A DNA stretch of 64,000 nt from a virus, in IMG/VR virus record IMGVR_UViG_3300029286_003693, positions 1 to 64,000 of that record; one strand, written 5' to 3'. This document shows positions 47,060 to 60,919 of this stretch, one piece after another; position 1 is the stretch's first letter, and each line of letters starts with the position of its first letter. The notes beneath the pieces are model-generated. The model was not told where the DNA came from, did no database searches, and worked only from the letters and a program-made list of their open reading frames with translations. Both the position numbers and the translations under genes were made by a program.

Positions 47060-47068
47060 CCGTCACTC

Positions 47069-47854: not shown

Positions 47855-47855
47855 C

Positions 47856-48017
47856 TTACTCTTCCTTGCTTTCCACCTTCAGGACCTTAAAGTCCGGGTC
47901 TTTTTTTATCGCCTCTTTGATCGTGGATCTGACTGCCCTCACCTTCCTGCGCCAGTCTCCACCGTCTCCGAAGGACACGGCAGTGGTGACTACAAACGTG
48001 ATCGGTTTCGTATCCAT
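47856..48017 (-). CDS. Small hypothetical protein
   Basis: AGGAG RBS before ATG 48017. Confidence 0.5.
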   Translation of the reverse strand: MDTKPITFVVTTAVSFGDGGDWRRKVRAVRSTIKEAIKKDPDFKVLKVESKEE

Positions 48018-48027
48018 GTTCGCGCTC

Positions 48028-49062
48028 CTACTTCTTGGCAAGTAGCTCATTATAAAGCTCAATATACGTTTCAACATGCTTCCCCCTATCGAAGTTCTCC
48101 CTGGCATACTGCATGGTTTCTTCCCTCAGCGTACTCCCAGGGGCCTTCAGGTCATTCCAGCATCTCTCGATCTGTTCTGCGATGGAATGAAGGTCAAACG
48201 GCTTTGCATGGTACTTCGTGTATTCCCCGTTGTAGCTGACGACAGGGACGCCGAAGGCCATCATCTCCATCGTCACCCGGCTGGCAATGCCGGAATAGTT
48301 GTTGTTGAACCCGATGTCGGCCCCCGCCTGGAACGGCTTCAGGTTGTTGTTTGCCAGTTGGATGTTCTCGCAGGCTGTTTCCAGGGCTCTTTTGTGGCTC
48401 CGGACGAAGACGTTTCTCCACATCCCGATCGGCTCAAGCAGCAGGGAAAATACGTTCAGTCTTGCCTCCGGGATCTTCTCCATCACGTATGGCATTGCCC
48501 AGATGATATGAAGGGGTAGCTTTTCCACCCTCGGAGTATCGCAGGAGAGAATCGCCGGATGGTCCTCATACTGCCACGGCGCCGTCCCTTCCAGGTCTTC
48601 CAGATCAATGCTGTTCGGGATATACCGGCAGCGCCCCACTTTCTCGTCGTACAGCTTCATGACGTCGTACTCGTGGGTGTTGATGCAGACCGTGGCGTCC
48701 ATCTTCCAGAGAAGGTTCACATGCAGGTTGAACGAGTCGCTCACCTTCTCCCATTCTTTGAACACCATATGCTCAGTCGGCCCGTGCAGAACTGCCACCG
48801 TGACCTTCTTCACCTGCTCCTTCTTCATTTCCGCATCATCGGGAAAGGCGGAATGCAGGACCCAAACGTCGGCTTTTTTCGCCTCTTCCCAGGTGATCGG
48901 GCGGAAACCCTTGTCGTTCCTCTCTGCCGTTGGGATGGCTTCGTAGGAAATGGCAAGCTCCGATCGAATGCCGGCGCGGGTCTCATATTTGCACTGATTC
49001 TTACAGGATTCGTACATCCCGCTGATCCGTGGACCCCAGTTGCTCCAGTGAACTACGAACAT
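48028..49062 (-). CDS. GT-B (GT4-like) glycosyltransferase
   Basis: VAVLHG, RYIPNSIDL, RVEKLP and TMEMMAFGVPVVS motifs. True start is probably 49062, not 49416. Confidence 0.82.
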   Translation of the reverse strand: MFVVHWSNWGPRISGMYESCKNQCKYETRAGIRSELAISYEAIPTAERNDKGFRPITWEEAKKADVWVLHSAFPDDAEMKKEQVKKVTVAVLHGPTEHMVFKEWEKVSDSFNLHVNLLWKMDATVCINTHEYDVMKLYDEKVGRCRYIPNSIDLEDLEGTAPWQYEDHPAILSCDTPRVEKLPLHIIWAMPYVMEKIPEARLNVFSLLLEPIGMWRNVFVRSHKRALETACENIQLANNNLKPFQAGADIGFNNNYSGIASRVTMEMMAFGVPVVSYNGEYTKYHAKPFDLHSIAEQIERCWNDLKAPGSTLREETMQYARENFDRGKHVETYIELYNELLAKK

Positions 49063-49082
49063 TTTGCCATCCCTTTTTGGGT

Positions 49083-49110
49083 GGAGAAGGGAGCCTTCGC
49101 CCCCCTCTCC
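49083..49110 (-). other. Intergenic stem-loop
   Basis: GGAGAGGGGGGC-GAAG-GCTCCCTTCTCC on the minus strand; no U-tract. Confidence 0.55.
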
Positions 49111-49124
49111 GGGTGATGATACTG

Positions 49125-49580
49125 CTACGCCTGAGCGACCGAGCTGTACCGCAGTTTGATGAGCCCTGCCGACGTGTAAACGATGTTCTTGACAGCCCTC
49201 GAATTGACACCGGGATCTGTGAAGACCGCGCTCGACAGACGGCCCTTTGCCGCCAGTCCTGCCGACGCTCCGGCAGCCAACGCCGCTGCCGCACTCTGAG
49301 CATCGCTTGCCGCAGACTGCGCAATAACGACCTGAGAAGCCGCCGCATTGGCCACGGAATGCGCGTGAACCGCAGCAGCCGAAGCCACTGCCGCTTTGGA
49401 CGCGCCAACACCCCACGACGAGGAATGTGCCGCTATCGCGCTCACGGCACTCGCCGCTGCAGCCATCGCTGCCGACGCGTTGCTATGGGCATCACTTGCC
49501 GCTGCAAGAGCTGCCGTCGCAGCGCTGTGGGCATCGCTGATCTGCGCGGGATCGAAACTCACACTTAGAAATCCAGCCAT
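49125..49580 (-). CDS. Ala/Ser-rich small virion protein
   Basis: GAGGAGG RBS; N-terminus is shared with 47069-47854. Confidence 0.75.
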   Translation of the reverse strand: MAGFLSVSFDPAQISDAHSAATAALAAASDAHSNASAAMAAAASAVSAIAAHSSSWGVGASKAAVASAAAVHAHSVANAAASQVVIAQSAASDAQSAAAALAAGASAGLAAKGRLSSAVFTDPGVNSRAVKNIVYTSAGLIKLRYSSVAQA

Positions 49581-49618
49581 TTTCTTGTCCTCCTCTCTTA
49601 GAGTCGGGCACCTACGGT

Positions 49619-50170
49619 CTATTCGTCATTCCGGCAGACGGCCACCATAGGGTTTTCGTAGCCTGAAACCAGCGGTTCCAGTGTATATGTTCGCAGGCTG
49701 ACACTTACGAAAGCCGTCTTGAGTATCCCCTCGAATTCTTTCGGGGCGTACTCTCGGACGTGGGTATCCGCCTTCCGATACCTGCTCAGCCGGTTAGGTG
49801 TAGAAAGGATCAGAGAACCGTTCTTGGCCATCATCCTCTTGACGTTCAAAAGGGCCTGCTTGTCGTGTTTGATATGCTCAATGATGTCGATCATGACGAT
49901 GAAATCGTATGGGCCTTCGTCGATCCCCTTTGAGATATCCCCGTATTTGAAGCGAAGTTTCGGAATGGGGAAAACCTTCTGTGCGAACCTTATGCCGCAC
50001 TCGTCTAATTCATATCCAGTCACGGCCTGCGCGTTCGTGGTCAACAGGTGCGCCCCGAACCCTGTCCCAAAGCCCACGTCGGCGACATTGCCCCGAACAA
50101 CCTTGGCTACCTGCTCATAAAGGTCAAATTGAGGGCTCAACACATATCGAAGTCGGTTCCAGAGTTCCAT
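49619..50170 (-). CDS. Class I SAM-dependent methyltransferase (small-molecule/glycan type)
   Basis: VADVGFGTGFG, DIIEHI, ILSTPN; no DPPY/NPPY motif. Confidence 0.85.
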   Translation of the reverse strand: MELWNRLRYVLSPQFDLYEQVAKVVRGNVADVGFGTGFGAHLLTTNAQAVTGYELDECGIRFAQKVFPIPKLRFKYGDISKGIDEGPYDFIVMIDIIEHIKHDKQALLNVKRMMAKNGSLILSTPNRLSRYRKADTHVREYAPKEFEGILKTAFVSVSLRTYTLEPLVSGYENPMVAVCRNDE

Positions 50171-50179
50171 GTCGTCTCC

Positions 50180-50473
50180 TTATGGCACTGGGGTTGAATC
50201 ATATGTTATTACTACTTTTTTATCGGACCCCATCCGGATGTTCGTTATCTTGTACCCACCGGGCGGGGATACGCTCCTTATCGCGCCAGGGGTGCCAGGG
50301 TCCCGAATAACGACCGGCACGGGCGCCCCTTTGACAACGGTAGGAACTGGAGTGGTTGTCGCAACCGCTGCTCCCGTTACCGAAGCCGAGGCGTTTGTAA
50401 CAACGGTCGGCACCGGCGCTCCCCTTACAACGGTTGGAACCTGGATGGTCGTGACGATCGTTGTTCTCATCAA
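50180..50473 (-). CDS. Thr/Val/Pro-rich repeat protein
   Basis: VPTVV(R/K)GAPVP occurs twice; ATGA-coupled to the upstream gene. Confidence 0.65.
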   Translation of the reverse strand: MMRTTIVTTIQVPTVVRGAPVPTVVTNASASVTGAAVATTTPVPTVVKGAPVPVVIRDPGTPGAIRSVSPPGGYKITNIRMGSDKKVVITYDSTPVP

Positions 50474-50856
50474 TCGGCCCTCGTGACTGCGGGGTTGAAC
50501 GTAAATTTTCCTCTTTGCTGCATGCCCGTATCGTTGTCGATCCCGTGGTCAAAGAATAGATCGTAGACGAGGGATCGCTTTTCGTGGTCCGGGCATATTC
50601 CCAAAGTCTGCGCGGGGGTGAGAAATATGGCGTACTTTCCATCGGTCGGTGGAGACAGAATGATGATCCCGCCGTTTTCGGTCGTGAGATCGAAGACAGG
50701 ATCATCGTCCGCAACATCCGCCCTCACCTGCATCCTGGCAGTTACGTCAGTCAGATCCACGGGTTCAGCCGGGTCTCCCGTTTCCCAGGTGAATTCCTGA
50801 TAGAAGGTCGCGCCTTCCCACCCCTCCAGGTTGATTACGGCATGTGAGCTGAACAT
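50470..50856 (-). CDS. Ig-like virion adaptor (BppU/LtfC-like)
   Basis: GATF...PVDLT..TARMQVR...YDL...GKF..NPAVTR. Confidence 0.75.
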   Translation of the reverse strand: MFSSHAVINLEGWEGATFYQEFTWETGDPAEPVDLTDVTARMQVRADVADDDPVFDLTTENGGIIILSPPTDGKYAIFLTPAQTLGICPDHEKRSLVYDLFFDHGIDNDTGMQQRGKFTFNPAVTRAD

Positions 50857-50865
50857 ATTCGGTCC

Positions 50866-51033
50866 CTAATCTTTAGGCTTCATCGGGGTCCGGTCAGGTG
50901 TCCACCCGTGATCAATCGCATTCAGGAGTCGCCTCTGGGCCTCAGCCTTTTCTTTCGTGGTGCCTTTGGCATGAACGGCATTCGGAGTCTTGACCTGATA
51001 CTTTTTGCCCCTTTTTATAACTGTTACTGGCAT
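50866..51033 (-). CDS. 55-aa basic phage protein (not in the ORF track)
   Basis: AAGGAG RBS; MPVTVIKRGKKYQVKTPNAVHAKGTTKEKAEAQRRLLNAIDHGWTP... Confidence 0.65.
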   Translation of the reverse strand: MPVTVIKRGKKYQVKTPNAVHAKGTTKEKAEAQRRLLNAIDHGWTPDRTPMKPKD

Positions 51034-51100
51034 GACAAACTCCTTGGTGCTCCCCTACCCCGAGATCATTCCCTCGGGGCAGGGGTCAGGTGGCGAGCGC

Positions 51101-51697
51101 TTAGCTCGTGGTACAGGTGATCTGGTACGTTACATAGATTTCATCATCGGCGATGACGGCACGGGGGGTCCCGAACCGTTTGGCGCACATCAGGGTGCCC
51201 GCCGCGCTGGTCTTCGCCGCCGTGTCAACGAGGAAGGCCCCGTAGACGGTAATCGACGCATTCATGACGAAGTGCGCCTTGGCGTTGACGTTCGTGATGA
51301 CCGCGGTGGTCGTATCTTCCGTGGTGTACGCGGGCCGGTTGGTCAGCGGGTTGTCATAGTCCGCATCCTGGCACTCGCCGTAGGCATTGCCGGAGCCCAG
51401 CTTCGCTCCCGTGTCGGCCAGGGCCGGGGTAATGTTGTTTTTGAAGATACCGACGTACCAGATGTGCGACGCGGCCTTGGAGATGTCATGGAACATGATG
51501 TTCAGGAGCTTGGCCATACCCTCCGTCGTGAAGGTATTTGTCCCGGTTTCCGTAAAGAGCAGGACGCCATTGCGCCAGTGCTCAAACGTCACCTTGCCTT
51601 CGAAGATGATGTCATCCCATGCCCCTTTTTTCAGTCTCAAAAAGAGTGCCGTGACCATCAACCAGACCATCGCGATAAAACCCTTAATTCTGTCCAT
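51101..51697 (-). CDS. Virion structural protein
   Basis: AAGGAGG RBS; NTFTTEG..LL, TVYGAFL and VTYQIT patterns of podoviral tail-associated proteins. Confidence 0.7.
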   Translation of the reverse strand: MDRIKGFIAMVWLMVTALFLRLKKGAWDDIIFEGKVTFEHWRNGVLLFTETGTNTFTTEGMAKLLNIMFHDISKAASHIWYVGIFKNNITPALADTGAKLGSGNAYGECQDADYDNPLTNRPAYTTEDTTTAVITNVNAKAHFVMNASITVYGAFLVDTAAKTSAAGTLMCAKRFGTPRAVIADDEIYVTYQITCTTS

Positions 51698-51720
51698 TGT
51701 GTGTTCCTCCTTGTTGTGTG

Positions 51721-51831
51721 GTTGTTCGGGGCAAAGAAAAAGGGCGACAACGCTGATGTGCTGGCACCAGCATGCCGCCCTTGTTTCTCTCTTGCGTTCC
51801 CGTCCGGGTGGCCACCCTTCAGGGAAACCCC
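51721..51831 (-). ncRNA. Candidate structured cis-regulatory RNA with terminator-like hairpin, copy A
   Basis: Covarying homolog of 57060-57167. Confidence 0.6.
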
Positions 51832-51843
51832 AACTACTAATGA

Positions 51844-53085
51844 TTAAAGAACTTTCCCGTTTCTTACGACCTCACAAGTCGCAGAGTCACCAAAGCCGAC
51901 CCCACTCCCGCGAGGGCGTTCCTGCTTGAAGCTGGTCAAAAACTGCTCCCGCCCGTTCACAGTCCGGGACACCGCTGCCCCTTCCTGGCCGGCTGGGAAC
52001 TGGACCCGGTCCTTTGTGAACTTGGCGAGCACACCGCTATGCCCGCCCGCCATCAGGCCGTCTTTTGATACCCAAACCGGGACGTTGTTGCCCATATCCG
52101 GCACGTTGTTGCAGTAGGCGAGGATATTTTGCGCCACCCCTGCCCCGACATGGACCTCCCGCATCGCGCTCGGTTCTGTTCCGGGAAGGAAAATAGTCCG
52201 GTCATCGAACCCGACGAAGATTCCACCGTCCACAAACGCAACTAGAAGGATGTCATTGGGGAACGAGAACATGTTCGTCGATTTATAGAGGTCGTAACGA
52301 TAGGGTTCACTGTAACGTAGGGTGCTGTCCACCGCTCCCCAGAGGCGACCGAACGCCCGTCGGATGAACTTCATGGGGTTTGGCGGGCCGCAAAGAAAGG
52401 TCGGAAGGGGCTCCATGGTCTCGATCCCCGTGATCAAAGCCTGCTCTTCCGCAGCTCTGTAAAAGGTGCTTCCGTCCGGGTCTGTCGCCCATGCGATGAC
52501 GCCGGATGGTTTGTTGAGAAGTGAAATCGTAGAGTTGTCGGCCATGATGTCAATCTCGGCAATCATCCCGTTGCCGCCAACCTGCCCCCCGACGACGTTT
52601 GTGTAGCAGACCTGGTAGCGTCCGGCGGTCAGCGCCCCGGTGCCATTCACCGCTGCGAGAACCGGCTGCTCCGAAATCGGTATCCCCCAGGTGCTCACCA
52701 TGTTTTGTGCTGGATCGAGGATTCCCATCCAGTGGCGGCTTGAGATATAGATATTGTCGTCCACCGCGGCATAGAAGAGTTTCTCCTCGAAGGGGCCGGA
52801 CAGGGCGCAAAGGTTGACCTTTGACCCATCAGGATAGAATCGGTAGAGTCTGCCTTCCGCCGCAGCCAGCAAGACATGCCTGGTGCCCCAGGCGCTATGT
52901 GCGTTTGGCAAACTGGCCAGAAGTCGATATCCGCCCCGCTTCTTCAGCCGCTCCTCTGCCGTGACATCGGCGTTCAGAATGACCTTCGGGATCGCTGTCA
53001 TCGTCCCATCGTCATGGCCCGAAAATCCGCCCTCTTCGAGTACGTTATTCATGCCTTTGAATCCCCTGATCGTTAAAGGTTTCAT
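51844..53085 (-). CDS. Podoviral tail/stabilisation protein (beta-propeller-like)
   Basis: FKGMNN...NADVT..RLKKRGGY; follows the adaptor. Confidence 0.7.
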   Translation of the reverse strand: MKPLTIRGFKGMNNVLEEGGFSGHDDGTMTAIPKVILNADVTAEERLKKRGGYRLLASLPNAHSAWGTRHVLLAAAEGRLYRFYPDGSKVNLCALSGPFEEKLFYAAVDDNIYISSRHWMGILDPAQNMVSTWGIPISEQPVLAAVNGTGALTAGRYQVCYTNVVGGQVGGNGMIAEIDIMADNSTISLLNKPSGVIAWATDPDGSTFYRAAEEQALITGIETMEPLPTFLCGPPNPMKFIRRAFGRLWGAVDSTLRYSEPYRYDLYKSTNMFSFPNDILLVAFVDGGIFVGFDDRTIFLPGTEPSAMREVHVGAGVAQNILAYCNNVPDMGNNVPVWVSKDGLMAGGHSGVLAKFTKDRVQFPAGQEGAAVSRTVNGREQFLTSFKQERPRGSGVGFGDSATCEVVRNGKVL

Positions 53086-53723
53086 CAGAAATCCAGCCTT
53101 GTCCGTTGGACATCCGCTCTTGCCTTGGGCGCGTTCGGGTAGAAAGCGACCAGAGAGGCAATCCCGTTTGCGGCCAGACCGCTGTATTTCTGCGTGTTCG
53201 GCATCACTCCGTCGAGCCCGTCCTCGATCTGGATGTATGCCTCTTTGAGAGTGTAATTCTGGAAGATCTCCTTGTGAAGAATCTCCGGGATGTAGTCGGG
53301 AAACACGTCCCCGACTGCCAACTCCTTCGGTTTTCCGTAGAAATGAAGCGTCATATTCTCGGCATCTTCCGGGATGGGCCTGAAGTTCAGGATCTTCCCA
53401 TCAAGGCAGATGATCTGCACGGGGCCGGTCTGTGTATCATTGGAATTCGCCTTCAATTCCTTAATGTTCGGGGCAATCAGAATGCCCTGTGGGTACGTCG
53501 GTGTCGTCACGAGGTAGAGGTCATGCAGGTAGGTCTTCGGAAGGGCCGCTGTTAGTGCCGCTGCTGCCGCCTCTACCACTGCGGTCGTCTGAAGGCCAGG
53601 GATTCGGCACATCGTAGCCAATAGGAGCAGGGCCTCGTTGAACTTTCCGATGATCCAGGTCTCGTCGTAAGTCGCGTCCTGGACTATTTTCTCAACCTCT
53701 GTCACGATTGCATCTACTTCCAT
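53085..53723 (-). CDS. Head-tail adaptor
   Basis: Helical N-terminus, FRPIP, IPEILH; position after the capsid genes. Confidence 0.7.
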   Translation of the reverse strand: MEVDAIVTEVEKIVQDATYDETWIIGKFNEALLLLATMCRIPGLQTTAVVEAAAAALTAALPKTYLHDLYLVTTPTYPQGILIAPNIKELKANSNDTQTGPVQIICLDGKILNFRPIPEDAENMTLHFYGKPKELAVGDVFPDYIPEILHKEIFQNYTLKEAYIQIEDGLDGVMPNTQKYSGLAANGIASLVAFYPNAPKARADVQRTRLDF

Positions 53724-54145
53724 CAGTTTTTCCTCTTCTGCGGTCTCTTTGATCCTTTTTTGGGATAGGCCGGGCGATCCGGTTCATCACTCTTGTCTAT
53801 CTGCCCAACATGGGGCGCGTAAGCATCCTTACCGACCTGCTCATGCACGGGCATCTCGTTCCCGAAATGCGCCGACATGCGGCTCTCGGCAGTCTCCGGG
53901 ACAGCTTCGGCTGAGTCCGCAACAGGCGCCACTTCATCCACCACTTCTTCGGTAATCTTCTTCAGGACGTTGTATTCCTTGAACGCGGTGTTGTGGAACG
54001 GGTCCGAGATCCTTTTGATGTGCTCCTGGTCCGTGATATCACTGACAAGGTGCCCATGATCGTTTCGCTTGAACTTATAGGCCGTCCCCGCCAGGTTGAC
54101 GATGCACTCGTTCTGGTCTCTCTCGACCAACAATTGAACCTGCAT
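53723..54145 (-). CDS. Phage hypothetical protein
   Basis: GGAGGAG RBS before ATG 54145. Confidence 0.6.
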   Translation of the reverse strand: MQVQLLVERDQNECIVNLAGTAYKFKRNDHGHLVSDITDQEHIKRISDPFHNTAFKEYNVLKKITEEVVDEVAPVADSAEAVPETAESRMSAHFGNEMPVHEQVGKDAYAPHVGQIDKSDEPDRPAYPKKGSKRPQKRKN

Positions 54146-54233
54146 AACTCCTCCAATGTTTGTAGGCCGTGACGGTGGAGCGAGAAGAGGGGGCACCCCC
54201 ACCGCCACGCCTACGGGGTTGTGTGGACCCTTT

Positions 54234-54680
54234 TTAGCCGCCGTACTCCGCGGCGCGGTACGTCAGAATCCCACGAATAGTCCCTGCTGCGGCTGTTCCC
54301 GCTGCCGTGGTGATGTGCATCCCAAACAGGGTCTCCGTCTCGACGGGGGCCACCATCGAAAACAGAGTCGAACGGGCAACCCCACCCGCCTGGGCCACGG
54401 TAGACGCGGGAACCATGATCTGATCAACCGCGTCCTCCGCTGCATTGATTCCGCCGCCATCCACGACGATTGCAGGGCTGCCGGCGGAATCCAGATCGTC
54501 AACGATGAGGGTGAAATCCAGGGGGATGCACCCAGCCGGGAGCGAGCACAGCGCGATGGTCTGCTCGTCCACGTTCAGAGCGGCGGTGATTTCATACGAG
54601 CCGTCGCTCACCAGAACCTTGCCAGCCTCGTCCGGGTAAACCGCAGGACGGGCGCCTGCTACATTTGCCGATTTCAACAT
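54234..54680 (-). CDS. Capsid decoration/cement protein
   Basis: LPAG...DDLDS...TAAAGTIR..LTY; directly after the MCP. Confidence 0.7.
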   Translation of the reverse strand: MLKSANVAGARPAVYPDEAGKVLVSDGSYEITAALNVDEQTIALCSLPAGCIPLDFTLIVDDLDSAGSPAIVVDGGGINAAEDAVDQIMVPASTVAQAGGVARSTLFSMVAPVETETLFGMHITTAAGTAAAGTIRGILTYRAAEYGG

Positions 54681-54706
54681 AGTCGTGTCTCCTTTTCCTT
54701 TACTGA

Positions 54707-54740
54707 AGGGGGAGATCCGTCTCCCCCGCTGTCATTCCTG
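54707..54740 (-). other. Stem-loop after the major capsid gene
   Basis: GGGGGAGA-CGGA-TCTCCCCC followed by only TT. Confidence 0.5.
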
Positions 54741-54750
54741 CGATCCCCTG

Positions 54751-55854
54751 TTACCCGACCGGCTGCTTGGCTGCCGTGTCGATTGCCATGATCCCGAAGT
54801 CCTTGGCGTTGAACTGCACCTTGGAGATTCCGAAGATCGAGTGCGTGCTGATCACGACCTGGTTTCCGCTGTCTCTCTCCTCTTCGTACCAGCCGAAGCG
54901 GAGACCGTTGCCCTTGGAACCGAAGGCGATCACTGCCGCCTGGACGCCCATGAACAGAGCCCGCGCCGCCTCAACGGTCGCGGGGTTGCCGTAGTCGGCC
55001 ATACGGATTACGGCCTGGTGCTCATGCAGGACCACGTTGTTATACATGCCGAGCCCGCCCTGGAAGATCGGGTTCTTACGGCCCTCTGCCGCTGCCGCCG
55101 CCTTCTGTATGTCCAGCCAGCCAGAGCCGCCCGTGGTCTGCCGAAGGTCGTACACCTGCCACGGGTTCATCAAGAGGACGAAGTGCTTCTCGCCGTTGAT
55201 GAGGATCGGCTGAATCTTGGGGGTTCCCCCCGTTCCGCCTCCCATCATCGAGGCCATAGCCACAGCCTTGTCGATGAGTCCCAGGGTGATCGTGTCGCCC
55301 GCGGCAATGGTCGTCTTGATCTTCGTGCCCGGCATGAGCAAGTGCTCGGTGTCGGGGGCGTTGAAGGCGTTCCCTGCAAATCCCGCGTAACTGGTCGGGA
55401 AGATGTAGTCCGCATTGGACCCGCGGAGCCCGGACAGATACATGAAGAAGAGCTCGTCGAATACCCGGCTCCACCATTCCGACTGCCGTACCCGTGCGAT
55501 CTCCCGAAGCTGGTGGATCGTCCGCTTCTGGGTCATCCTGCCGCCCGTGTTCACCCCGCCGCGCATCTGATTGATCAGGATGTCGTCGGAGTAGAACTTC
55601 AGGTCCTCTTCTTTCCCGGTCAAAGGGGTGTCCCCTTCCACAGGTTGCATTTTCAACTGCATGACGAGGTCGAAGGAAACCTTGTCTCCCGCCGTGCTTT
55701 CGAGGTCTTTTACGACCTGGATGGGCATACTGGAGCCTTCAGCGCCCATGAACTTGCGGGAGAAATAGGAATCCCGCGCCACGTCTACCGCAAGGAATGC
55801 CGAATACTTCTTGACGGCCTTGGGGTCGTTTACACCGATGATTGTCTGTCCCAT
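54751..55854 (-). CDS. Major capsid protein, N4-gp56/DUF4043 family
   Basis: MGQTIIGVNDPKAVKKYS, GGRMTQKRTIH, KNPIFQGGLGMYNNVVLHEH. Confidence 0.92.
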   Translation of the reverse strand: MGQTIIGVNDPKAVKKYSAFLAVDVARDSYFSRKFMGAEGSSMPIQVVKDLESTAGDKVSFDLVMQLKMQPVEGDTPLTGKEEDLKFYSDDILINQMRGGVNTGGRMTQKRTIHQLREIARVRQSEWWSRVFDELFFMYLSGLRGSNADYIFPTSYAGFAGNAFNAPDTEHLLMPGTKIKTTIAAGDTITLGLIDKAVAMASMMGGGTGGTPKIQPILINGEKHFVLLMNPWQVYDLRQTTGGSGWLDIQKAAAAAEGRKNPIFQGGLGMYNNVVLHEHQAVIRMADYGNPATVEAARALFMGVQAAVIAFGSKGNGLRFGWYEEERDSGNQVVISTHSIFGISKVQFNAKDFGIMAIDTAAKQPVG

Positions 55855-55974
55855 TGCGTATCCTCCTAAAAGTGATAGAAAATGTTTTTGTGTTTCACCA
55901 TCTCTCCATTTCCCCCATCACTTCCCGGTCATCGGGCTGGCTATGTTTGAACCAGAACGTGGGATGTACTGTCT

Positions 55975-57033
55975 TTATGAGCGGGCTGCGTAGATCGCCC
56001 GTTCCGTATCGCTCATCTTGGCGACTGCGTTCTCGTAGGCTTCCCCTGTGAGCTTATCAATCGCGTCATACTTGTCGTCTCCCTGATTCCCTTCCGATAC
56101 CGGGACCTTGGCAAGCGTCTTGACACCCGCGGCCCTCTCGGCCTCCGCCTTCTTTGCGGCTTCGATAGCCTTGCGCTTCTCCTCGGCGGCCTCAATAGCC
56201 GTGCGCTTCTCTTCGATGGACACGACATTGCCATCGTCCGCCTTGGGCGGTCCTTCCGGGTGGAAAACCGCGTCGCATTCTTTCTTTGCGGCTGCGAAAA
56301 TCTGGGCGTCGGTCATCTTCTTCGACTCGTCGGTGGCCAGGAGCCGGTTGACGGCGTCCACAAAAGCCACATTCTTGATCCGCTCTGCGGAATACTCTGG
56401 GTTGCTGCTAAAAAAATCGGCTTGGGCGTCCTTCCATCCCTTTTCAGCTGCAGCCTTCTGGACCTGGGCGTTGATCTTGTCGAACATCTTCATCTCGGTG
56501 AGCGATTCGACGTACTCGGCGCGTTCCTTGTTGTAAGCGGCCAGGGTGATGTCCCCATCCTCGAACTTCGTGTCGAGCGCCGTCATCTTGGCTTCGATTT
56601 CCTCCCTGGTTCCGTGCTTTTTCTCGGCCTCCAGGATGAAAACAGGTTCGTTTTTGGGTACAATGACGGTCGCTGCCGCAGCTGACTTTTCCGCCTTCTG
56701 CGCTGCCTCCAGGTCTGCCGCCTCTTTGGCTGCCTGGACTGCCGCTGCCGCCTCTGCGTCTGCCGCCGCCTTGGCTTTGGCCTCTTCTTCGAGCTTCTCT
56801 GCTTCCGCTTCCGCTTCCTCCGCCGCCTTCTCCTCTTCAGTCTTCTCCTCCACCGCCTTCTTCTCGACCGTCCGCTTGGCTTCCCCTGCCCCCTCTTCCT
56901 TCGCCTTGGCGGCTGCGGCGGCCTCTTCCTCGGCTTTGATCTCCTCCGTGCTCTTGTTTTCCGTTTCCCCATCAAGGGCCTCTCGCTCTTCGGGGCTCAG
57001 CATCGCCAGCTCGTCTTCCGTGATCTTTCCCAT
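55975..57033 (-). CDS. Capsid scaffolding protein
   Basis: E/A/K-rich helical protein between portal and MCP. Confidence 0.75.
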   Translation of the reverse strand: MGKITEDELAMLSPEEREALDGETENKSTEEIKAEEEAAAAAKAKEEGAGEAKRTVEKKAVEEKTEEEKAAEEAEAEAEKLEEEAKAKAAADAEAAAAVQAAKEAADLEAAQKAEKSAAAATVIVPKNEPVFILEAEKKHGTREEIEAKMTALDTKFEDGDITLAAYNKERAEYVESLTEMKMFDKINAQVQKAAAEKGWKDAQADFFSSNPEYSAERIKNVAFVDAVNRLLATDESKKMTDAQIFAAAKKECDAVFHPEGPPKADDGNVVSIEEKRTAIEAAEEKRKAIEAAKKAEAERAAGVKTLAKVPVSEGNQGDDKYDAIDKLTGEAYENAVAKMSDTERAIYAARS

Positions 57034-57059
57034 AATGTCGTCCTCCCTCTCTGTCCCGG

Positions 57060-57167
57060 GTTGATTCGGGCAACAAAAAAGGACGGCTGTAGAAGTGTAG
57101 GCTCCTACAAGCCGTCCTCGTTTGTTCTTGCGTCCCCTTTCGGTATGCCTACCGTCTGGGGAACCCT
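57060..57167 (-). ncRNA. Candidate structured cis-regulatory RNA with terminator-like hairpin, copy B
   Basis: Covarying homolog of 51721-51831; AGGACGGC...GCCGTCCT followed by a T-tract. Confidence 0.6.
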
Positions 57168-57186
57168 TATTTTCTAATAACTACCC

Positions 57187-59622
57187 TTACTCCTTATGGT
57201 TGTTGCTCTTCAGTCCCCTTTCGACTGACCCGTTCGGCTTGTCCTTCGCCTTGACCAATTTCTCGTCGAGGGCCAGGCGCTTTACATCCATGATCCGGGT
57301 ATGCTCGCCCGCCTTTTCTGTGTTCTCAGCGTTCCGCTCGGTCATCATCAGACCATGCGCCGCCGACTCCTCTTTGACGTTCTGATCCCGCGTCTGCATG
57401 GTCCTCTGGTGCTCGCCCTGCTCGATGGTATTCAGCGTGCTGGCCTTCTCCATCCGGAGCTTTTCCTTGTCATAATCGACACCCGCGGCGCTCACCTGCT
57501 GGTTAACCGACTCAGTCTTGATCTTCGCGGCGATAAGCTGGGCTTCTTGTTCAAGCTTCTTGACCTTCGCCTGTTCGGCTGCGAGCTGCGTCTGAAGGAT
57601 CTGGTTTTGTGTCTCTGCCGCCTGCGTCGCTGCATCTGCCTTGGCCTGATCTGCAGCCTGATCTTCGGGAGTGGCCGCACCCTCAGTTCCCCGTTGGCCG
57701 GTGATTGCCCTGAACCGATCGACAAACTTTTCTTTACCGGGTAAATCGGACAACTCGAACCATAGATCAATAACTTGTATTGCTGCTTCGGGCTGCAAGG
57801 TCTTGAGGATCTCAGTCATTGACTCGAACATGGCCTCGCGGATCGTCGCGGAGTAATCCTGCTCGGAAATGACGAAATCGGCCTGACTTGCCGTGATGTC
57901 GCCGATGATCTCATCCGTCTCCGGGTCATATTTGTTGATCTCAAGGAACTCGGGCGTCTTGCCGTTCTCGCCCCCGGTGATCCGGATCTTTTTTTCCTCG
58001 GTGTAGAGCTGCTCGATCATCGACAAAATGATTTCACCAGACAGCTTGAAGGCCAGCCGGTTGTTATCGAAGAATGCCGTCGTTACAACACCGCCCTGCT
58101 CCTGCCGCGCCCTGATCGCCTTCCCCGACACAGCATTCGTGTCCCGCCCCATCAGTTCGTCCGTCACGCCTGACGCGCTCTGGATGTACTTCTCGTCCTG
58201 GGTCATCAGCATGACGTGCTCTTCAGCCATCTTGTTCTCGTTCTGGATCTCGACCCCGCGTTGACTCTTTGGGTTGACCTTGATCAATCCGTCCGGGCGA
58301 TTCGCCTCCTGGACGATGTCGCTCCAACTCTGGTCGGTGTTGTCGATCGCGTCGTCATCCGCCATTACCCGGTTGGCTGACAACAGGTAGAGAGCCTTTG
58401 ACCGGCGCTTGTTCAGGTCTTTCTGCGGGTCTCTGAGATTCCGGACAATGCCGTAGGGCGTCCCGTCCTTCTTCCGTTTGAAGCCCCAGATCGGCACCAG
58501 ACTGAAGCGCTTGTGTCGGTACGGGCTCTCCCCGTCCTGCAATACCGAGTCGCCGGTGAAGATTATCTGACGCATCTCCATCACGGTTGACTCGACCGGC
58601 TGACCGATTCCCAGCTCCACCAGTTTCTGGTGCTTCCCCTCATCGAACGTGATCCCCTGAAGCGTTCCCAGTTCCTTGCCGCGCAACAGCTTCTTTCTTG
58701 CCGGGGTCCGATACTGACACTCGACCAGGAACACACGATCCCGCGGCTCAACAGAGGTCTGGGTGCCGATGTACCCGAAAAACCCGGTGTACTGCGGCAT
58801 AAAGCCTGTACTGCTGTGCGGCATCCCGCCCGCCATCTTTGGATCGAAGGCAGGATCAAGCATTTCCGCAAAGGTCTCGTACCCGAATCCCTGATCCCCG
58901 CTGATAACAGAAGCATGGATAACGTCCGCCCTGTCCGGGAACATGGCACAGGCAACGTCTTCATCCACCCACTTGCCCCTGAAAACGTAACGGGCGTCGG
59001 AGAGGTCGTCCTCGACGGCCAGCGTGTCCCACCAGATGTATCGCCAATCCTCGTAAGAGACGACAAGGGGCTCGTTGTCCGGGTCCGCGTTGATCCCGTG
59101 ATCGATCCACCCTACCCCGGCCAGCACGGCATCGGCGAATGACTTCGACCGCTTGAATCCCGCGTTGTTCGCGTCGGAGACGTATTTGAAGAGCTTCGTC
59201 TTCATCTCCGCGCTCTTCGCGTCCTCTTCACCCCTGGGTAGAACGCGATAGTCAACCCGGATCTTCTTTTCAGTCCCGAGCACCCAATCGACCGTTGGCT
59301 TGACCTGGTTGAAGGTGATCGGCACCTGGGTCCGTTTGGCCAGGATCGCCTTCTCTTCCTGCGTCCACTGCCCCGGTCCGTCGTAAAACTCATGGTCTAC
59401 CATCGACTCACAACGGAAATCGGCCTGTCGCACCCTCTCTTGGGCGAACCATGACGACACCTTCGTGAACCGCTTGCGGACATCCTCCCTGTCGAGCGGA
59501 TGAACTCCTTCGGGCGGCTTTTCAAGCCCCAGATCATCCAGGTGTTCATCAACGTCGAACTCGCGAGGGGTGTATTCCTCGATGCTCCTTACGTTTTCGG
59601 CTCTTTGAGTTCGCTCGCTCAT
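57187..59622 (-). CDS. P22-like portal protein
   Basis: FYDG..QW, ITFNQVKP.VD.VLGTE, YGIVRNLRDPQKDLNKRRSK, SGKAIRARQEQG. Confidence 0.92.
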   Translation of the reverse strand: MSERTQRAENVRSIEEYTPREFDVDEHLDDLGLEKPPEGVHPLDREDVRKRFTKVSSWFAQERVRQADFRCESMVDHEFYDGPGQWTQEEKAILAKRTQVPITFNQVKPTVDWVLGTEKKIRVDYRVLPRGEEDAKSAEMKTKLFKYVSDANNAGFKRSKSFADAVLAGVGWIDHGINADPDNEPLVVSYEDWRYIWWDTLAVEDDLSDARYVFRGKWVDEDVACAMFPDRADVIHASVISGDQGFGYETFAEMLDPAFDPKMAGGMPHSSTGFMPQYTGFFGYIGTQTSVEPRDRVFLVECQYRTPARKKLLRGKELGTLQGITFDEGKHQKLVELGIGQPVESTVMEMRQIIFTGDSVLQDGESPYRHKRFSLVPIWGFKRKKDGTPYGIVRNLRDPQKDLNKRRSKALYLLSANRVMADDDAIDNTDQSWSDIVQEANRPDGLIKVNPKSQRGVEIQNENKMAEEHVMLMTQDEKYIQSASGVTDELMGRDTNAVSGKAIRARQEQGGVVTTAFFDNNRLAFKLSGEIILSMIEQLYTEEKKIRITGGENGKTPEFLEINKYDPETDEIIGDITASQADFVISEQDYSATIREAMFESMTEILKTLQPEAAIQVIDLWFELSDLPGKEKFVDRFRAITGQRGTEGAATPEDQAADQAKADAATQAAETQNQILQTQLAAEQAKVKKLEQEAQLIAAKIKTESVNQQVSAAGVDYDKEKLRMEKASTLNTIEQGEHQRTMQTRDQNVKEESAAHGLMMTERNAENTEKAGEHTRIMDVKRLALDEKLVKAKDKPNGSVERGLKSNNHKE

Positions 59623-59629
59623 GACTACA

Positions 59630-60919
59630 TCAACCCTCTGCCACCGTTATCAAAAGAGGTTGCACGCTGTTGATCCGTTTGTCGGCTATCTCAACATATT
59701 CAGGATTCAGTTCGATCCCGATGAACCCAAATCCCTCCGCTGCCGCTGCTTTCCCTGTTGAACCGCTACCCATGAAGGGATCAAGAATCACGCCGCCGGG
59801 AGGCGTAACAAGGCGGCAGAGGTAGCGCATCAGGGCGGTTGGTTTGACTGTGGGGTGGAAATTACCCTTCGTGTCTGTGTTCTCAACCTTTCGGAGTGTG
59901 GTACCGTGGTGGAACTGGGGGCCAGGATTATTCAGCCCTTCATTACGATCTTCCCGGCTCGCCTTTGCGCAGTAGAAGAACCGGGCGGTTGAACCGGAGT
60001 CGCCGGGGGTGTCGCGCTTTGTAATGTCTGGGTCCATGTATCCGTAGGTATTCCGGTTAGGTCCTTCAGAATTAAGCCTTCTTTGTCCTGCAGACATCTT
60101 CCCGCTCGTCGTCACCGGAAACAGCCCCACCACTTGATCGCTGCCGTCATATATAAGGTTGGCAGGCCAGCGTCCGTTTGCACTCACGACCTCTGGCGTG
60201 TCGCTCCCTGTCTGATTCATCCCCCATCCATTTTTCTCGCTTTTCTTCGAGCGGTTCATTGTCCTCAATTGTGATGCGTCGGCCTTCGGGTCAATTCCCA
60301 CCCTGCACCCATCGATATTCAATCCCCCCGTCCCATACTTCAGGACGTTGGCGGCCACGGTACCGATTAAGGGCTTCCGGCAAACCAAGACCGGCTCCCA
60401 TGCTGGCTTGAGGGCAGTGCCCCAGCCTTCCCATTGACGGGCGGTATCAGTTGCGGGGGCGGTGATGTCAAAAACCTTTCCACTTCCATCCATGTACCCA
60501 ATTCCAGTATCCCCTTTACCGTGATTGTCGAGCTTTATCCTGTGCGGCCCACTGCCGTTTTCGTTGACGCCCACCACTTGCCGTTCTGCCCCCGCCGCCT
60601 TGTCGATCGCCTTACTCACATCTAGCGACTTAGGGAACCCTGAACCATACACCCACATCACGGTATCCCGAATCTCCCACCCCGCATCCTCTATCGCAAC
60701 AGCCAGCCGGTGAAAGGTTCGTGTCCCACCAAAGGCCAGCATATACGCACCCGGCTTCGCTACCCTCAATGCCGCTTCCCAAAACGGAACACCCGGCACA
60801 CCGTGATCCCAATCCTTACCCATGAAGGAAAGGCCATAAGGAGGATCACAGACGATGGAGTCAACCGATTCGGTTTCAAGCGTTGGCATAATGTTCAGGC
60901 AATCGCCCTCATAAATCAT
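59630..60919 (-). CDS. Orphan beta-class DNA amino-methyltransferase (DPPY)
   Basis: CDPPYG, HPTVKP, LDPFMGSGSTG. Confidence 0.92.
   Translation of the reverse strand: MIYEGDCLNIMPTLETESVDSIVCDPPYGLSFMGKDWDHGVPGVPFWEAALRVAKPGAYMLAFGGTRTFHRLAVAIEDAGWEIRDTVMWVYGSGFPKSLDVSKAIDKAAGAERQVVGVNENGSGPHRIKLDNHGKGDTGIGYMDGSGKVFDITAPATDTARQWEGWGTALKPAWEPVLVCRKPLIGTVAANVLKYGTGGLNIDGCRVGIDPKADASQLRTMNRSKKSEKNGWGMNQTGSDTPEVVSANGRWPANLIYDGSDQVVGLFPVTTSGKMSAGQRRLNSEGPNRNTYGYMDPDITKRDTPGDSGSTARFFYCAKASREDRNEGLNNPGPQFHHGTTLRKVENTDTKGNFHPTVKPTALMRYLCRLVTPPGGVILDPFMGSGSTGKAAAAEGFGFIGIELNPEYVEIADKRINSVQPLLITVAEG

What the first reader, a model, noticed from the sequence alone, without database searches (positions are those of the whole stretch)
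51721..57167. Two-copy covarying structured RNA with a switchable terminator in the late operon (51721-51831 and 57060-57167)
Seen on the minus strand. Copy A: GGGT-TTCCC-TGAA-GGGT[GGCC]ACCC-GGAC-GGGAA-CGCAAGA..AGGGCGGCA-TGCTG[GTGC]CAGCA-CAT-CAGCG-TTGTCGCCCT-TTTTCTTTGCCCCGAA. Copy B: GGGT-TCCCC-AGA-CGGTA[GGCA]TACCG-AAA-GGGGA-CGCAAGA..AGGACGGCT-TGTAG[GAGC]CTACA-CTT-CTACA-GCCGTCCT-TTTTTGTTGCCCGAA. The stems differ in sequence yet keep their pairing. CGCAAGA and TTGCCC are conserved and can pair (GCAA/TTGC). In both copies the inner pentamer has two alternative partners, giving two exclusive folds. Each copy lies immediately upstream of a strong RBS (scaffold-capsid block; tail-appendage block). 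Inference: a cis-acting attenuator, antitermination or processing element that sets structural-protein stoichiometry.
Basis: partly seen in the sequence, partly recalled or inferred. Interest (0 to 1): 0.78.

Follow-up and report, generated by a model that had tools for sequence, protein, structure and literature searches.

The report
Clamped terminator RNA before capsid genes
Two copies of a roughly 110-base folded RNA, built around a transcription stop signal, sit between late genes of a prophage, and the same element turns up in many unrelated phages just ahead of their most abundant capsid and tail genes.

Summary
Both copies (minus strand, 51719-51833 and 57058-57169) fold into one architecture. 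A closing helix P1 (GGGU/GCCC) encloses a hairpin P2, an almost invariant junction CGCAAG, and a long arm P3. P3 looks like an intrinsic terminator: A-tract, GC stem, U6-7.

Covariation is strong in 21 distinct sequences from related prophages and in 70 from IMG/VR. No Rfam family matches. One exact pattern found 105 viral stretches, against 0 for its reversed control.

The two alternative pairings of the inner pentamer are both kept by covariation. The minor fold leaves the terminator base intact, so a terminator on/off switch is not supported.

The element sits tightly between co-directional genes. Of 36 annotated downstream genes, 22 encode major head, major tail or scaffolding proteins. 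That argues against a simple attenuator.

Best reading (about 0.4): a mobile intercistronic cassette. It stops unmodified polymerase. When read through, it closes into a three-way junction that marks and protects the start of a high-expression segment. Function is untested. It is a new variant of a known kind.

The parts
57058..57169 (-). Copy B, whole element as matched by the covariance model; lies between the portal gene and the scaffold-like gene
   Evidence: 126.7 bits
57163..57166 (-). Copy B, P1 5' strand (GGGT)
57133..57162 (-). Copy B, hairpin P2 (TCCCC..GGGGA, with a purine-rich internal loop and a GGCA apical loop)
57127..57132 (-). Copy B, junction strand CGCAAG (a GNRA-like GCAA flanked by C and G)
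57072..57126 (-). Copy B, P3. The A-tract pairs with the U-tract; then come a 9-bp GC stem and a bistable top. This arm has intrinsic-terminator anatomy
57088..57109 (-). Copy B, bistable top: TGTAGGAG / CCTACA / CTTCTACA. It forms either a short 5-bp hairpin or a long 8-bp hairpin
57068..57071 (-). Copy B, P1 3' strand (GCCC), directly after the U-tract TTTTTTGTT (57072-57080)
57031..57047 (-). Ribosome-binding site GGGAGGA and ATG of the 352-aa scaffold-like gene (55975-57033)
51719..51833 (-). Copy A, whole element; lies between the head-closure (Hc3-like) gene and the 198-aa gene
   Evidence: 134.2 bits
51827..51833 (-). Copy A, P1 5' strand (TTGGGGT; 7 pairs possible)
51797..51826 (-). 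Copy A, hairpin P2 (TTCCC..GGGAA, GGCC apical loop)
51791..51796 (-). Copy A, junction strand CGCAAG
51733..51790 (-). Copy A, P3: A-rich tract, GC stem and bistable top (51751-51772), followed by the U-tract TTTTTCTTT (51733-51741)
51726..51732 (-). Copy A, P1 3' strand (GCCCCGA)
51695..51712 (-). Ribosome-binding site AAGGAGG and ATG of the 198-aa gene (51101-51697; phrog_8123, function unknown)
57187..59622 (-). Portal gene, upstream of copy B. Its stop codon lies 20 nt before the first paired base of P1 (17 nt before the model match)
   Evidence: phrog_156, E 2.7e-159
54751..55854 (-). Major head protein gene, second gene after copy B
   Evidence: phrog_334, E 9.9e-108
51844..53085 (-). 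Head closure (Hc3-like) gene, upstream of copy A. Its stop codon lies 10 nt before P1
   Evidence: phrog_8040, E 2e-38

Best explanation
The element is a self-contained, horizontally mobile intercistronic RNA cassette of phage late operons, and I propose that it works in two states.

**State 1, termination.** The 3' two-thirds (P3) is a factor-independent terminator: an A-tract, a GC-rich stem and a run of 6-7 U. RNA polymerase that has not been made terminator-resistant stops there. This would include spurious or prophage-state transcription, and part of ordinary transcription.

**State 2, read-through.** In the late phase polymerase reads on, either because it is antiterminated or as a leaky fraction. 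The next 4-7 bases (GCCC...) then pair with GGGU at the 5' edge. This clamps P2, the conserved CGCAAG junction and the whole terminator arm into a closed three-way junction.

**What the closed form does.**
- It hides the U- and A-tracts.
- It loops out about 100 nt, so the upstream stop codon and the downstream ribosome-binding site stay close together.
- It leaves the short leader and Shine-Dalgarno sequence largely unpaired.
- It gives the downstream cistron a compact, nuclease-resistant boundary.

The element would thus mark the start of a high-expression mRNA segment (scaffold plus capsid, or major tail).

**The two pairings at the top of P3.** I read these as a co-transcriptional folding path. 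The short hairpin forms first. The second copy of its 3' arm then displaces the first and completes a continuous stem of about 17 bp.

**Shown versus inferred.** The structure, the covariation, the terminator anatomy, the positional bias and the spread across phages are shown. Actual termination, read-through, and the stabilising or insulating effect are inferred.
For: **Structure and covariation**
- Among 21 distinct sequences from related prophages, 96.7% of cells are paired against 77.3% in shuffles, and 22 of 30 pairs show changes on both sides. No shuffle of 500 reaches these values, and slid controls give 45-57% paired.
- Among 70 distinct IMG/VR sequences, 95.8% are paired against 69.4%, and 24 of 30 pairs show double changes.
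- G-U pairs such as UG 65 and CG 5 at the inner P1 pair fix the strand as the coding strand.

**Terminator anatomy**
- The helix at the base of P3 is always A on the 5' side and U on the 3' side. Only one position covaries (CG 9, UA 7, GU 3, AU 2).
- A run of at least 5-6 U follows the GC stem in every member found without forcing that feature.
- This polarity is what a terminator needs and what a merely structural helix does not need.

**P1 forms only after read-through**
- Its 3' strand begins right after the U-tract.
- Its outer pairs covary: TCCGGGT/GCCCGGA in L180, and A-U, G-U and C-G variants elsewhere, giving runs of 4-7 pairs.
- One distant member has a compensatory core change, CCGGC/GCCGG.

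**Predicted folds**
- The terminated product keeps P2 and P3.
- The read-through RNA closes P1. The last 30 nt before the start codon have a mean unpaired probability of 0.64 and 0.76 for the two copies.

**Position**
- A same-strand ORF ends just upstream in 74 of 76 members.
- An ORF preceded by a ribosome-binding site starts downstream in 70 of 76, with a median of about 16 nt after the model's end.
- Of 36 downstream fragments with a PHROG hit (70 were scanned), 8 are major head, 7 major tail, 7 scaffolding, 5 head-tail adaptor, 2 portal, 1 large terminase, 1 fibre and 1 virion protein.
- Full maps of three other genomes agree. In one the element lies between glycosyltransferase-like genes and the major tail gene. 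In another it lies before a 310-aa gene followed by the major head gene.

**Autonomy and mobility**
- The element occurs with different capsid families (phrog_10, 29, 334, 371, 1005, 1357), and in phages whose downstream gene is a major tail protein as well as in this Bcep22/PEp14-like group.
- Five near-complete virus records carry one copy each.
- It is absent from more distant relatives of this phage, where portal and scaffold genes abut. In all 4 such loci that my ORF script resolved, the gap is 3-15 nt.

**Other support**
- An RNA-library contig of 356 nt spans copy A entirely, 51695-52002. This is a weak hint of read-through RNA.
- Passages of PMC8022706 state that terminators inside single-promoter late operons exist in P22-like phages and that their roles are not known. 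The authors suggest partial termination, or stopping transcription that began without antitermination.
Against: - No experiment or raw-read end mapping shows termination, read-through or stabilisation. The RNA runs were available only as assembled contigs, and DNA carry-over cannot be excluded.
- No antiterminator was recognised in this provirus. Pfam scans of 23 ORFs and PHROG scans of 15 ORFs in the early region found a repressor-like S24 peptidase, an integrase and a replisome organiser, but no Q- or N-like family.
- A terminator placed just before the genes needed in largest amount is paradoxical unless read-through is efficient.
- The near-invariant junction (C-GNRA-G) and the conserved bistable top are more elaborate than a stabiliser or terminator would seem to need. 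This suggests an unrecognised partner or activity.
- Most genomes carry one copy. A role in silencing the whole late operon of a prophage is therefore unlikely.
- The large alignment A7 was collected with a pattern that forces the junction, the U-tract and GCCC. Their conservation can be judged only from the smaller unforced sets.
- The alignments were fitted by the covariance model, which leans toward the modelled structure.
Confidence: 0.4

Rival explanations
1. A regulated switch or antitermination target. A protein, a small molecule or the polymerase itself recognises the junction core or the short-hairpin state, in the manner of lambda N with boxB or of HK022 put RNA. This sets how much transcription passes into the capsid or tail genes.
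For: - Two mutually exclusive pairings at the top of P3 are each kept by compensatory change. The short hairpin is 99.0% paired against 58.0% in shuffles, and all 5 of its pairs covary.
- Both states lie within 7 kcal/mol in 66 of 71 distinct tops.
- The short hairpin carries a recurrent G-N-R-C type loop.
- The junction strand is nearly invariant as C-G(C/U/A)AA-G in sequences found without forcing it.
- The window's phage has two copies, which recalls nutL/nutR or putL/putR. That comparison is from memory.
Against: - The alternative fold keeps the GC stem next to the U-tract. The energies are -25.1 against -31.6 kcal/mol for copy B and -26.2 against -33.7 for copy A. No antiterminator pairing that opens the terminator is evident.
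- The 3' strand of P1 is made only after the release point, so the junction cannot form before the termination decision.
- The cassette occurs in unrelated phages, usually as a single copy. A shared phage-encoded factor is therefore unlikely.
- No antitermination family was recognised in this provirus.
- No riboswitch family matches.
Confidence: 0.2
2. An RNA processing module. The three-way junction is a self-cleaving RNA, or a substrate for a host nuclease. Candidates are RNase III on the roughly 25-bp arm P3, RNase P on a tRNA-like stack, and RNase E at the junction. Cleavage would cut the long late transcript into module-sized mRNAs with different lifetimes.
For: - The junction has invariant nucleotides, and there is strong covariation in all the arms that vary.
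- In its long state P3 is a nearly continuous helix of A/U extension, GC stem and top.
- The element sits at module starts: scaffold plus capsid, major tail, adaptor, portal.
- It works in many phage backgrounds, as a host-dependent or self-acting element would.
Against: - No ribozyme or other Rfam family matches, even at permissive thresholds.
- Only one junction strand is conserved, unlike the hammerhead core. That comparison is from memory.
- One RNA-library contig spans copy A uncut. This is weak evidence.
- Processing alone does not explain the strict 5'-A / 3'-U polarity and the U run right after the GC stem.
Confidence: 0.15
3. A plain constitutive terminator or attenuator, possibly the terminator of inserted accessory genes (morons). 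It would spread as a selfish or hitch-hiking cassette. P1, P2 and the junction would add nothing beyond hairpin stability.
For: - The terminator anatomy is canonical.
- In 4 of the 19 upstream fragments with a PHROG hit, the preceding gene is a glycosyltransferase-like accessory gene. The map of G160 shows two such genes right before the element.
- In L018 an extra 203-aa gene is flanked by a full copy and a degenerate copy.
- Related phages carry simpler cassettes of hairpin, A-rich spacer and terminator at similar places (L007, L008, L011).
Against: - P2, P1 and the junction strand are maintained across 70 distinct sequences of 40-63% GC, with compensatory changes. A bare terminator needs none of these parts, and neutral hitch-hiking would not keep them.
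- The position just before major head, major tail or scaffolding genes (22 of 36) is the wrong place for an attenuator.
- The host MAGs carry the element only in the prophage. It is therefore not the host's general terminator style.
Confidence: 0.15
4. The terminated product, or a piece cut from the 3' end of the upstream mRNA, acts in trans as a small RNA. It would consist of a 5' hairpin, an A-rich single strand, and a terminator with a U tail.
For: The terminated form is predicted to be hairpin P2, then CGCAAG plus an A-rich stretch, then the terminator hairpin and U tail. This resembles the layout of Hfq-type small RNAs (from memory). The junction strand is conserved.
Against: - The A-rich stretch pairs in cis with the U-tract, with covariation, so little free seed remains.
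- The covariation of P1 shows selection on the read-through form.
- A common target across hosts of 40-63% GC is not apparent.
- No promoter-like site lies in front of either copy.
Confidence: 0.05

Closest known systems
Canonical intrinsic (Rho-independent) terminators, including A-tract/U-tract 'extended' or bidirectional ones
   Same: A GC-rich stem is followed at once by 6-7 U, with an A-tract upstream that can pair with the U-tract. The element is co-directional with the genes and lies a few bases after a stop codon.
   Different: The terminator is one arm of a three-way junction. The junction is closed by a helix whose 3' strand lies beyond the release point. It also has a conserved second hairpin, an invariant junction strand and a conserved bistable top. 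The element lies upstream of the most highly expressed genes, not at operon ends.
Intra-operon terminators of P22-like and lambdoid late operons
   Same: These are terminators inside a late operon that probably has a single promoter. Passages of PMC8022706 say their roles are not known and suggest partial termination, or blocking transcription that started without antitermination.
   Different: Those are described as ordinary predicted hairpins at module ends. Here there is a conserved multi-helix RNA family shared by unrelated phages. No Q-type protein was recognised in this provirus.
lambda nut (boxA/boxB) and HK022 put antitermination RNAs (recalled, not tested)
   Same: They are cis-acting nascent RNA structures, two per genome, that govern passage through terminators. 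The hairpins covary between copies.
   Different: nut and put sites lie in early operons just after promoters and do not themselves contain the terminator. The junction CGCAAG is not boxA.
Phage T7 RNase III processing sites, and intercistronic repeats such as REP/BIME, ERIC and Correia elements (recalled)
   Same: They are structured elements transcribed within polycistronic mRNA that set the stability of segments. Some are mobile and occur between genes.
   Different: Those are simple or bulged hairpins, often in many copies per genome. This element has 1-2 copies per phage genome, a three-way junction and a U-tract.
Candidate structured RNAs catalogued from IMG/VR (PMC10690425)
   Same: That catalogue uses the same data source. 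It reports 8,495 candidates from IMG/VR, 1,241 of them overlapping predicted terminators, 879 lying within 25 bp upstream of genes with known domains, and five typically upstream of a major capsid domain (passages).
   Different: I could not establish whether this motif is among them. Six contig names carrying the element were not found in the three supplementary files that were searched. A fourth file is a blastx table, of which only part 1 was read. The two zip archives with the alignments could not be read. The main-text passages describe no three-way-junction terminator.
Promoter/stem-loop mobile regulatory cassettes of T4-type phages (recalled)
   Same: They are short regulatory cassettes that flank and travel with genes, and they mark places of modular exchange. 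In L018 an inserted gene is flanked by two copies.
   Different: Those combine an early promoter with a simple stem-loop. Here no promoter-like site is present, and the RNA fold is far more elaborate.

Membership tests
Intrinsic (Rho-independent) terminator | GC-rich hairpin followed immediately by a U-rich tract of about 6-9 nt | tested here: met
   The stems are GC-rich, of 6-9 pairs plus a top of 8-9 pairs. They are followed by TTTTTCTTT or TTTTTTGTT in both copies. The same holds in all 21 related sequences and in 4 distant ones found without forcing the U-tract.
Intrinsic (Rho-independent) terminator | Same orientation as the upstream gene, placed after its stop codon | tested here: met
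   A same-strand ORF ends within 150 nt upstream in 74 of 76 members, with a median gap of about 13 nt. In the window the gaps from the stop codon to P1 are 10 nt (copy A) and 20 nt (copy B; 17 nt to the start of the model match).
Intrinsic (Rho-independent) terminator | RNA 3' ends are actually formed at the U-tract | not testable with these tools
   Only assembled contigs of the RNA runs were available, and these cannot show ends.
Any Rfam 15 family | Covariance-model score at or above the family's gathering threshold | tested here: not met
   There were 0 matches in the 64 kb at gathering thresholds. Around the copies, only sub-threshold chance matches appeared at E up to 10; the best on the element strand were aspS at 18.4 bits against 42.5 and ctRNA_p42d at 13.8 against 50. 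There were 0 matches at E up to 0.01 in 20 other members.
Transcriptional attenuator or riboswitch expression platform | An alternative pairing that competes with, and opens, the terminator stem next to the U-tract | tested here: not met
   The only conserved alternative (5' arm with the loop repeat) leaves the lower GC stem and the A/U extension intact in constrained folds of both copies. P1 cannot compete, because its 3' strand lies downstream of the U-tract.
Small self-cleaving ribozymes (hammerhead, twister, twister-sister, pistol, hatchet, HDV-like) | Match to the family's conserved core and structure | tested here: not met
   No such family appears even at E up to 10 around the two copies, or at E up to 0.01 in 20 members. 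Cleavage activity itself cannot be tested here.
Sigma-70 type promoter inside or in front of the element | -35 and -10 hexamers with 16-18 nt spacing | tested here: not met
   The consensus scan of 44500-64000 reports no promoter-like site at either copy. In most members the space between GCCC and the start codon is too short to hold a -10 element, a leader and a ribosome-binding site.
New RNA family (this element) | P1 GGGU/GCCC, then hairpin P2, then junction C-GNRA-G, then P3 with an A/U base, a GC stem and a top whose loop repeats the 3' arm; located between co-directional late genes | tested here: met
   Both window copies and 19 further distinct sequences from related prophages fit. So do 76 of the 80 fetched loci, out of 105 pattern matches, and 4 further genomes among 150 sampled from one phylum.

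The most novel reading that the evidence does not exclude
The element is a new class of autonomous RNA device that phages exchange. It is an intrinsic terminator that, once read through, refolds into a clamped three-way junction with its own activity. That activity could be factor-independent antitermination or pause control acting on the polymerase, precise self-cleavage or host-nuclease cleavage, or ribosome recruitment. Through it, unrelated phages would set the high output of capsid, scaffold and tail-tube proteins. The conserved bistable top would then be the moving part of the device, not a folding by-product.
Probability: 0.25. Interest if true: 0.85.

Novelty: new variant of a known kind. 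Interest (0 to 1): 0.7.

Why it matters
How tailed phages make hundreds of capsid and tail-tube subunits but only a dozen portal subunits from one long late transcript is only partly understood. The role of terminators found inside late operons is stated to be unknown (PMC8022706, passages).

This element offers a defined, compact and widely shared RNA with which to test that question. It is a terminator embedded in a covarying three-way junction, and it sits exactly where expression has to rise.

If it proves to be an insulator, stabiliser or antitermination device that works without phage-specific factors, it would be useful in two ways:
- as a part for synthetic operons;
- as an annotation landmark for the start of the scaffold-capsid and tail-tube modules in metagenomic phage contigs.

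If it proves to be only a terminator, the positional bias still needs explaining.

Tried and rejected
- **Near-identical DNA search.** A search of 8.7 kb of the late operon against the phage isolate collection gave no match.
- **Earlier findings.** Look-ups by place and by sequence returned nothing.
- **Promoter and terminator consensus scans.** These were uninformative. The scan of the early region showed nothing resembling a late promoter plus terminator unit.
- **Possible link to phage JC1.** A predicted JC1 terminator ends in TTTTTATTGCCC (Table 4, PMC9144972). It abuts the end of a coding sequence and leaves no room for P2, so it is an ordinary terminator. I rejected it as a relative.
- **Loop-loop pairing between P2 and P3.** I rejected this by eye on the A7 alignment. 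When the P2 loop changes from GGCC to GATC or GACG, the P3 loop does not follow.
- **Sigma-54 and sigma-70 promoter readings of TTGCCC.** I rejected these on spacing, by inspecting the sequences.
- **Intergenic gaps in distant relatives.** My crude ORF script resolved portal plus scaffold in only 7 of 40 loci. The statement that distant relatives lack the spacer rests on 4 loci.
- **RNA runs.** Four RNA-library runs hold parts of the region as contigs. Depth, contig ends and uncovered parts there carry no weight. A joint in X19 that skips 51726-51826, with unknown letters between, probably reflects a relative with a different version of the element.
- **The IMG/VR catalogue.** The supplementary alignments of PMC10690425 could not be read: the zip archives were over the size limit, and a fourth file was only sampled. 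Whether the motif is already listed there remains open.
- **tRNA scan of the window.** It found none.

Full report
**1. The observation**

The window is part of an 82.7 kb provirus record. Its late genes run on the minus strand:
- large terminase, 62486-63892;
- two DNA methyltransferases;
- portal, 57187-59622;
- a 352-aa scaffold-like gene, 55975-57033;
- major head protein, 54751-55854;
- four small genes;
- an Hc3-like head-closure gene, 51844-53085;
- a 198-aa gene of unknown function, 51101-51697.

Copy B (57058-57169) lies between the portal and scaffold-like genes. Copy A (51719-51833) lies between the head-closure gene and the 198-aa gene. Each copy starts 10-20 nt after a stop codon and ends about 25-35 nt before a start codon with a strong Shine-Dalgarno sequence.

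The two copies are 78% identical per column. Each folds much better than shuffles: z -4.41 and -7.47, with 0 of 200 shuffles as good. A covariance model built from the two finds only them in the window with filters off, and only them in the whole record.

**2. The structure**

The minimum-energy folds and the consensus fold agree on a three-way junction with these parts:
- P1, where GGGU pairs with GCCC (4-7 pairs);
- P2, a hairpin of 5-6 pairs, a purine-rich internal loop, 3-5 more pairs and an apical loop that is often GGCC, GGCA, GATC or GACG;
- a junction strand, CGCAAG;
- P3, in which an A-rich tract pairs with the U-tract, followed by a GC stem of 6-9 pairs and a top.

P3 followed by TTTTTTGTT or TTTTTCTTT has the anatomy of an intrinsic terminator. 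The 3' strand of P1 begins right after that U-tract. P1 can therefore form only in RNA that has been read through.

**3. Relatives and covariation**

I used the major head protein as a handle to fetch 80 viral, 20 genome and 80 metagenome loci.
- Of the 16 viral loci whose capsid protein is at least 74% identical, 13 hold the element. L007 and L008 lack it, and L016 is cut short.
- None of the 64 loci at 68% identity or less has a strong match.
- Further copies lie in MAG contigs titled Syntrophorhabdus, Syntrophus, Deltaproteobacteria and Pseudomonadota, and in metagenome contigs.
- The copies occupy the same two slots. L180 is the exception: there the element precedes a small gene and the portal gene.
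- The hits comprise 22 distinct sequences.

On the model-fitted alignment of 21 distinct sequences, the results were as follows.
- 96.7% of cells pair, against 77.3% in shuffles.
- 22 of 30 pairs have changes on both sides.
- No shuffle of 500 reaches the observed values, and slid partners give 45-57% pairing.
- The four core pairs of P1 do not vary, but its outer pairs do. The fifth pair is G-C, A-U, G-U or C-G in 16 of 21 sequences, and runs of up to 7 pairs occur, such as TCCGGGT/GCCCGGA in L180.
- A distant member has the compensatory core CCGGC/GCCGG.
- The A/U extension of P3 is supported by one covarying pair (CG 9, UA 7, GU 3, AU 2).

That last pair fixes the register as AAYAA:UURUU. 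It leaves CGCAAG unpaired.

P2 and P3 types are shuffled between slots and between phages. Copies evidently recombine, so counts of cells overstate the number of independent events.

**4. The bistable top**

In every type, the hexaloop of the long hairpin repeats its 3' arm. The 5' arm can therefore pair with either repeat.
- The short hairpin is 99.0% paired, against 58.0% in shuffles, and all 5 of its pairs show double changes.
- The long hairpin is part of the structure tested.
- Among 71 distinct tops, 66 have both states within 7 kcal/mol. The long state is favoured by a median of 3.8 kcal/mol.
- Constrained folds of both window copies show that the short state keeps the lower GC stem and the A/U extension: -25.1 against -31.6, and -26.2 against -33.7 kcal/mol.

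The two folds are thus real and conserved, but they do not switch the terminator off in any way that thermodynamic prediction can see. I treat the top as a conserved feature that is only partly explained. It could be a co-transcriptional folding path, a pause hairpin or a binding site.

**5. A widespread family**

An exact pattern made from the junction and the U-tract/GCCC motifs found 105 stretches in IMG/VR. The same letters in reverse order found none.
- Of the 80 loci whose DNA was fetched, 76 match the full model, including P1 and P2, which the pattern did not specify. E-values are 1e-10 or better and GC ranges from 0.40 to 0.63.
- These give 70 distinct sequences.
- On them, 95.8% of cells pair against 69.4% in shuffles, and 24 of 30 pairs have double changes.
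- In this set the conservation of the junction, the U-tract and GCCC is forced by the pattern.
- Five near-complete virus records carry one copy each.
- Five host MAGs carry the element only at their prophage.
- In a sample of 151 genomes from one phylum, 5 matched, including the starting genome.
- No Rfam family matches the window, the two copies, or 20 other members.

**6. Context**

Among the 76 members, a same-strand ORF ends just upstream in 74. An ORF preceded by a ribosome-binding site starts downstream in 70, at a median of about 16 nt after the end of the model match.

I scanned the 70 downstream fragments of about 120 aa against PHROGs without removing duplicates. Thirty-six gave a hit:

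| Downstream gene | Count |
|---|---|
| major head | 8 |
| major tail | 7 |
| head scaffolding | 7 |
| head-tail adaptor | 5 |
| portal | 2 |
| large terminase | 1 |
| tail fibre | 1 |
| virion protein | 1 |
| unknown | 3 |
| other | 1 |

For the upstream fragments I scanned 62 of the 74, dropping 12 that I judged redundant. Nineteen gave a hit, and they are mixed:

| Upstream gene | Count |
|---|---|
| head morphogenesis (phrog_241) | 4 |
| glycosyltransferase-like | 4 |
| tail terminator | 2 |
| unknown | 3 |
| Neck1, small terminase, large terminase, head decoration, holin, portal-like | 1 each |

Maps of three other genomes agree:
- glycosyltransferase-like genes, then the element, then the major tail gene;
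- the element, then a 310-aa gene, then the major head gene;
- one case in which the element is followed by opposite-strand ORFs.

In more distant relatives of this phage, portal and scaffold genes abut, with gaps of 3-15 nt in the 4 loci resolved. The element is therefore an acquired insertion. In L018 an extra gene is flanked by a full copy and a degenerate copy.

**7. What kind of phage**

The capsid protein is about 50-53% identical to those of Pseudomonas phage Itty13, Erwinia phages PEp14 and Pavtok, and the Burkholderia Bcep22-like phages. Stx-converting phages are among the 417 matching records, all of which are under 60% identical. The record also encodes an S24-type repressor-like protein, a replisome organiser and an integrase, so the phage is temperate. 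No antiterminator family was recognised.

**8. Mechanism**

The strict polarity of the P3 base helix (A on the 5' side, U on the 3' side), with a U run directly after a GC stem in every member, is the signature of a terminator. I hold that part with high confidence, although termination itself is untested.

The covariation of P1 shows selection on the read-through RNA.

The position before the most abundant virion proteins argues that read-through is the productive state, and that the closed junction helps the downstream cistron and does not throttle it.

My best reading (0.4) is therefore the two-state cassette described under Best explanation. The rivals are:
- a factor- or ligand-controlled switch (0.2);
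- a processing module (0.15);
- a plain terminator or moron terminator (0.15);
- a trans-acting small RNA (0.05).

One 356-nt contig from an RNA library spans copy A completely. This is only a weak hint that read-through RNA exists.

**9. Comparison with what is known, and novelty**

Terminators inside late operons are known, and their roles are stated to be unknown (PMC8022706, passages). A large catalogue of candidate structured RNAs from IMG/VR exists (PMC10690425, passages). I could not determine whether this motif is in it.

The searches brought up no paper describing a terminator clamped in a three-way junction upstream of capsid or tail genes. That covers only the held library and those search terms.

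I rate the element a new variant of a known kind: an intrinsic terminator or intercistronic structured RNA with an architecture, a positional rule and a spread across phages that have not been described.

Noticed in passing
window 10690-30210 (-): A single open reading frame of 6,506 aa lies downstream of the structural genes. I recall giant virion-associated proteins in Bcep22-like phages, but this ORF was not analysed here.
   Followed up: no
window about 55912-55963 (-), between the scaffold-like gene and the major head gene: A second conserved structured leader lies here: two small hairpins closed by a CCC..GGG helix. It is shared with five related loci. There are 18 predicted pairs, 3 of them with compensatory changes. 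It has no Rfam match in the window-wide scan.
   Followed up: partly
L007:4600-4900 and L008:4600-4900: In two close relatives the gap between the scaffold and capsid genes holds an extra small ORF with two CxxC pairs. It is followed by a small hairpin, an A-rich spacer and a terminator. This cassette is simpler than the element and has no P1 clamp.
   Followed up: partly
L018:9019-9124 and L018:9798-9896: An extra 203-aa gene is inserted at slot A. It is flanked by a full copy and a degenerate copy of the element that share the same 3' flank. This suggests the element serves as a junction for gene insertion.
   Followed up: partly
L011:3682-3910: At the portal-scaffold slot this 74%-identity relative carries a different cassette of two hairpins plus a terminator. 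It ends in TTTTTTATTACC and has no P1. The standard element sits at its downstream slot.
   Followed up: no
window 59630-60919 and 61296-62498 (-): Two paralogous DNA methyltransferase genes lie between the terminase and portal genes. Their 5' ends are 84% identical over 58 nt (60863-60920 against 62433-62490).
   Followed up: no
window 33277-33717, 34920-35303 and 45786-46485: Tandem 63-nt coding repeats occur in two large structural genes. Collagen-like 9-nt periodic repeats occur in the 406-aa fibre-like gene.
   Followed up: no
window 5205-5263 and 5615-5673: A pair of 59-nt direct repeats, 80% identical and 410 nt apart, lies in the gene-poor region at the left end of the window, which has lower GC.
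   Followed up: no
window 578-1378 (+): A motif of about 51 nt repeats three times inside a 653-aa ORF at the window's left edge. By eye it resembles the linkers between PAS domains of sensor kinases, which would make it probably host DNA flanking the prophage. This was not tested.
   Followed up: no
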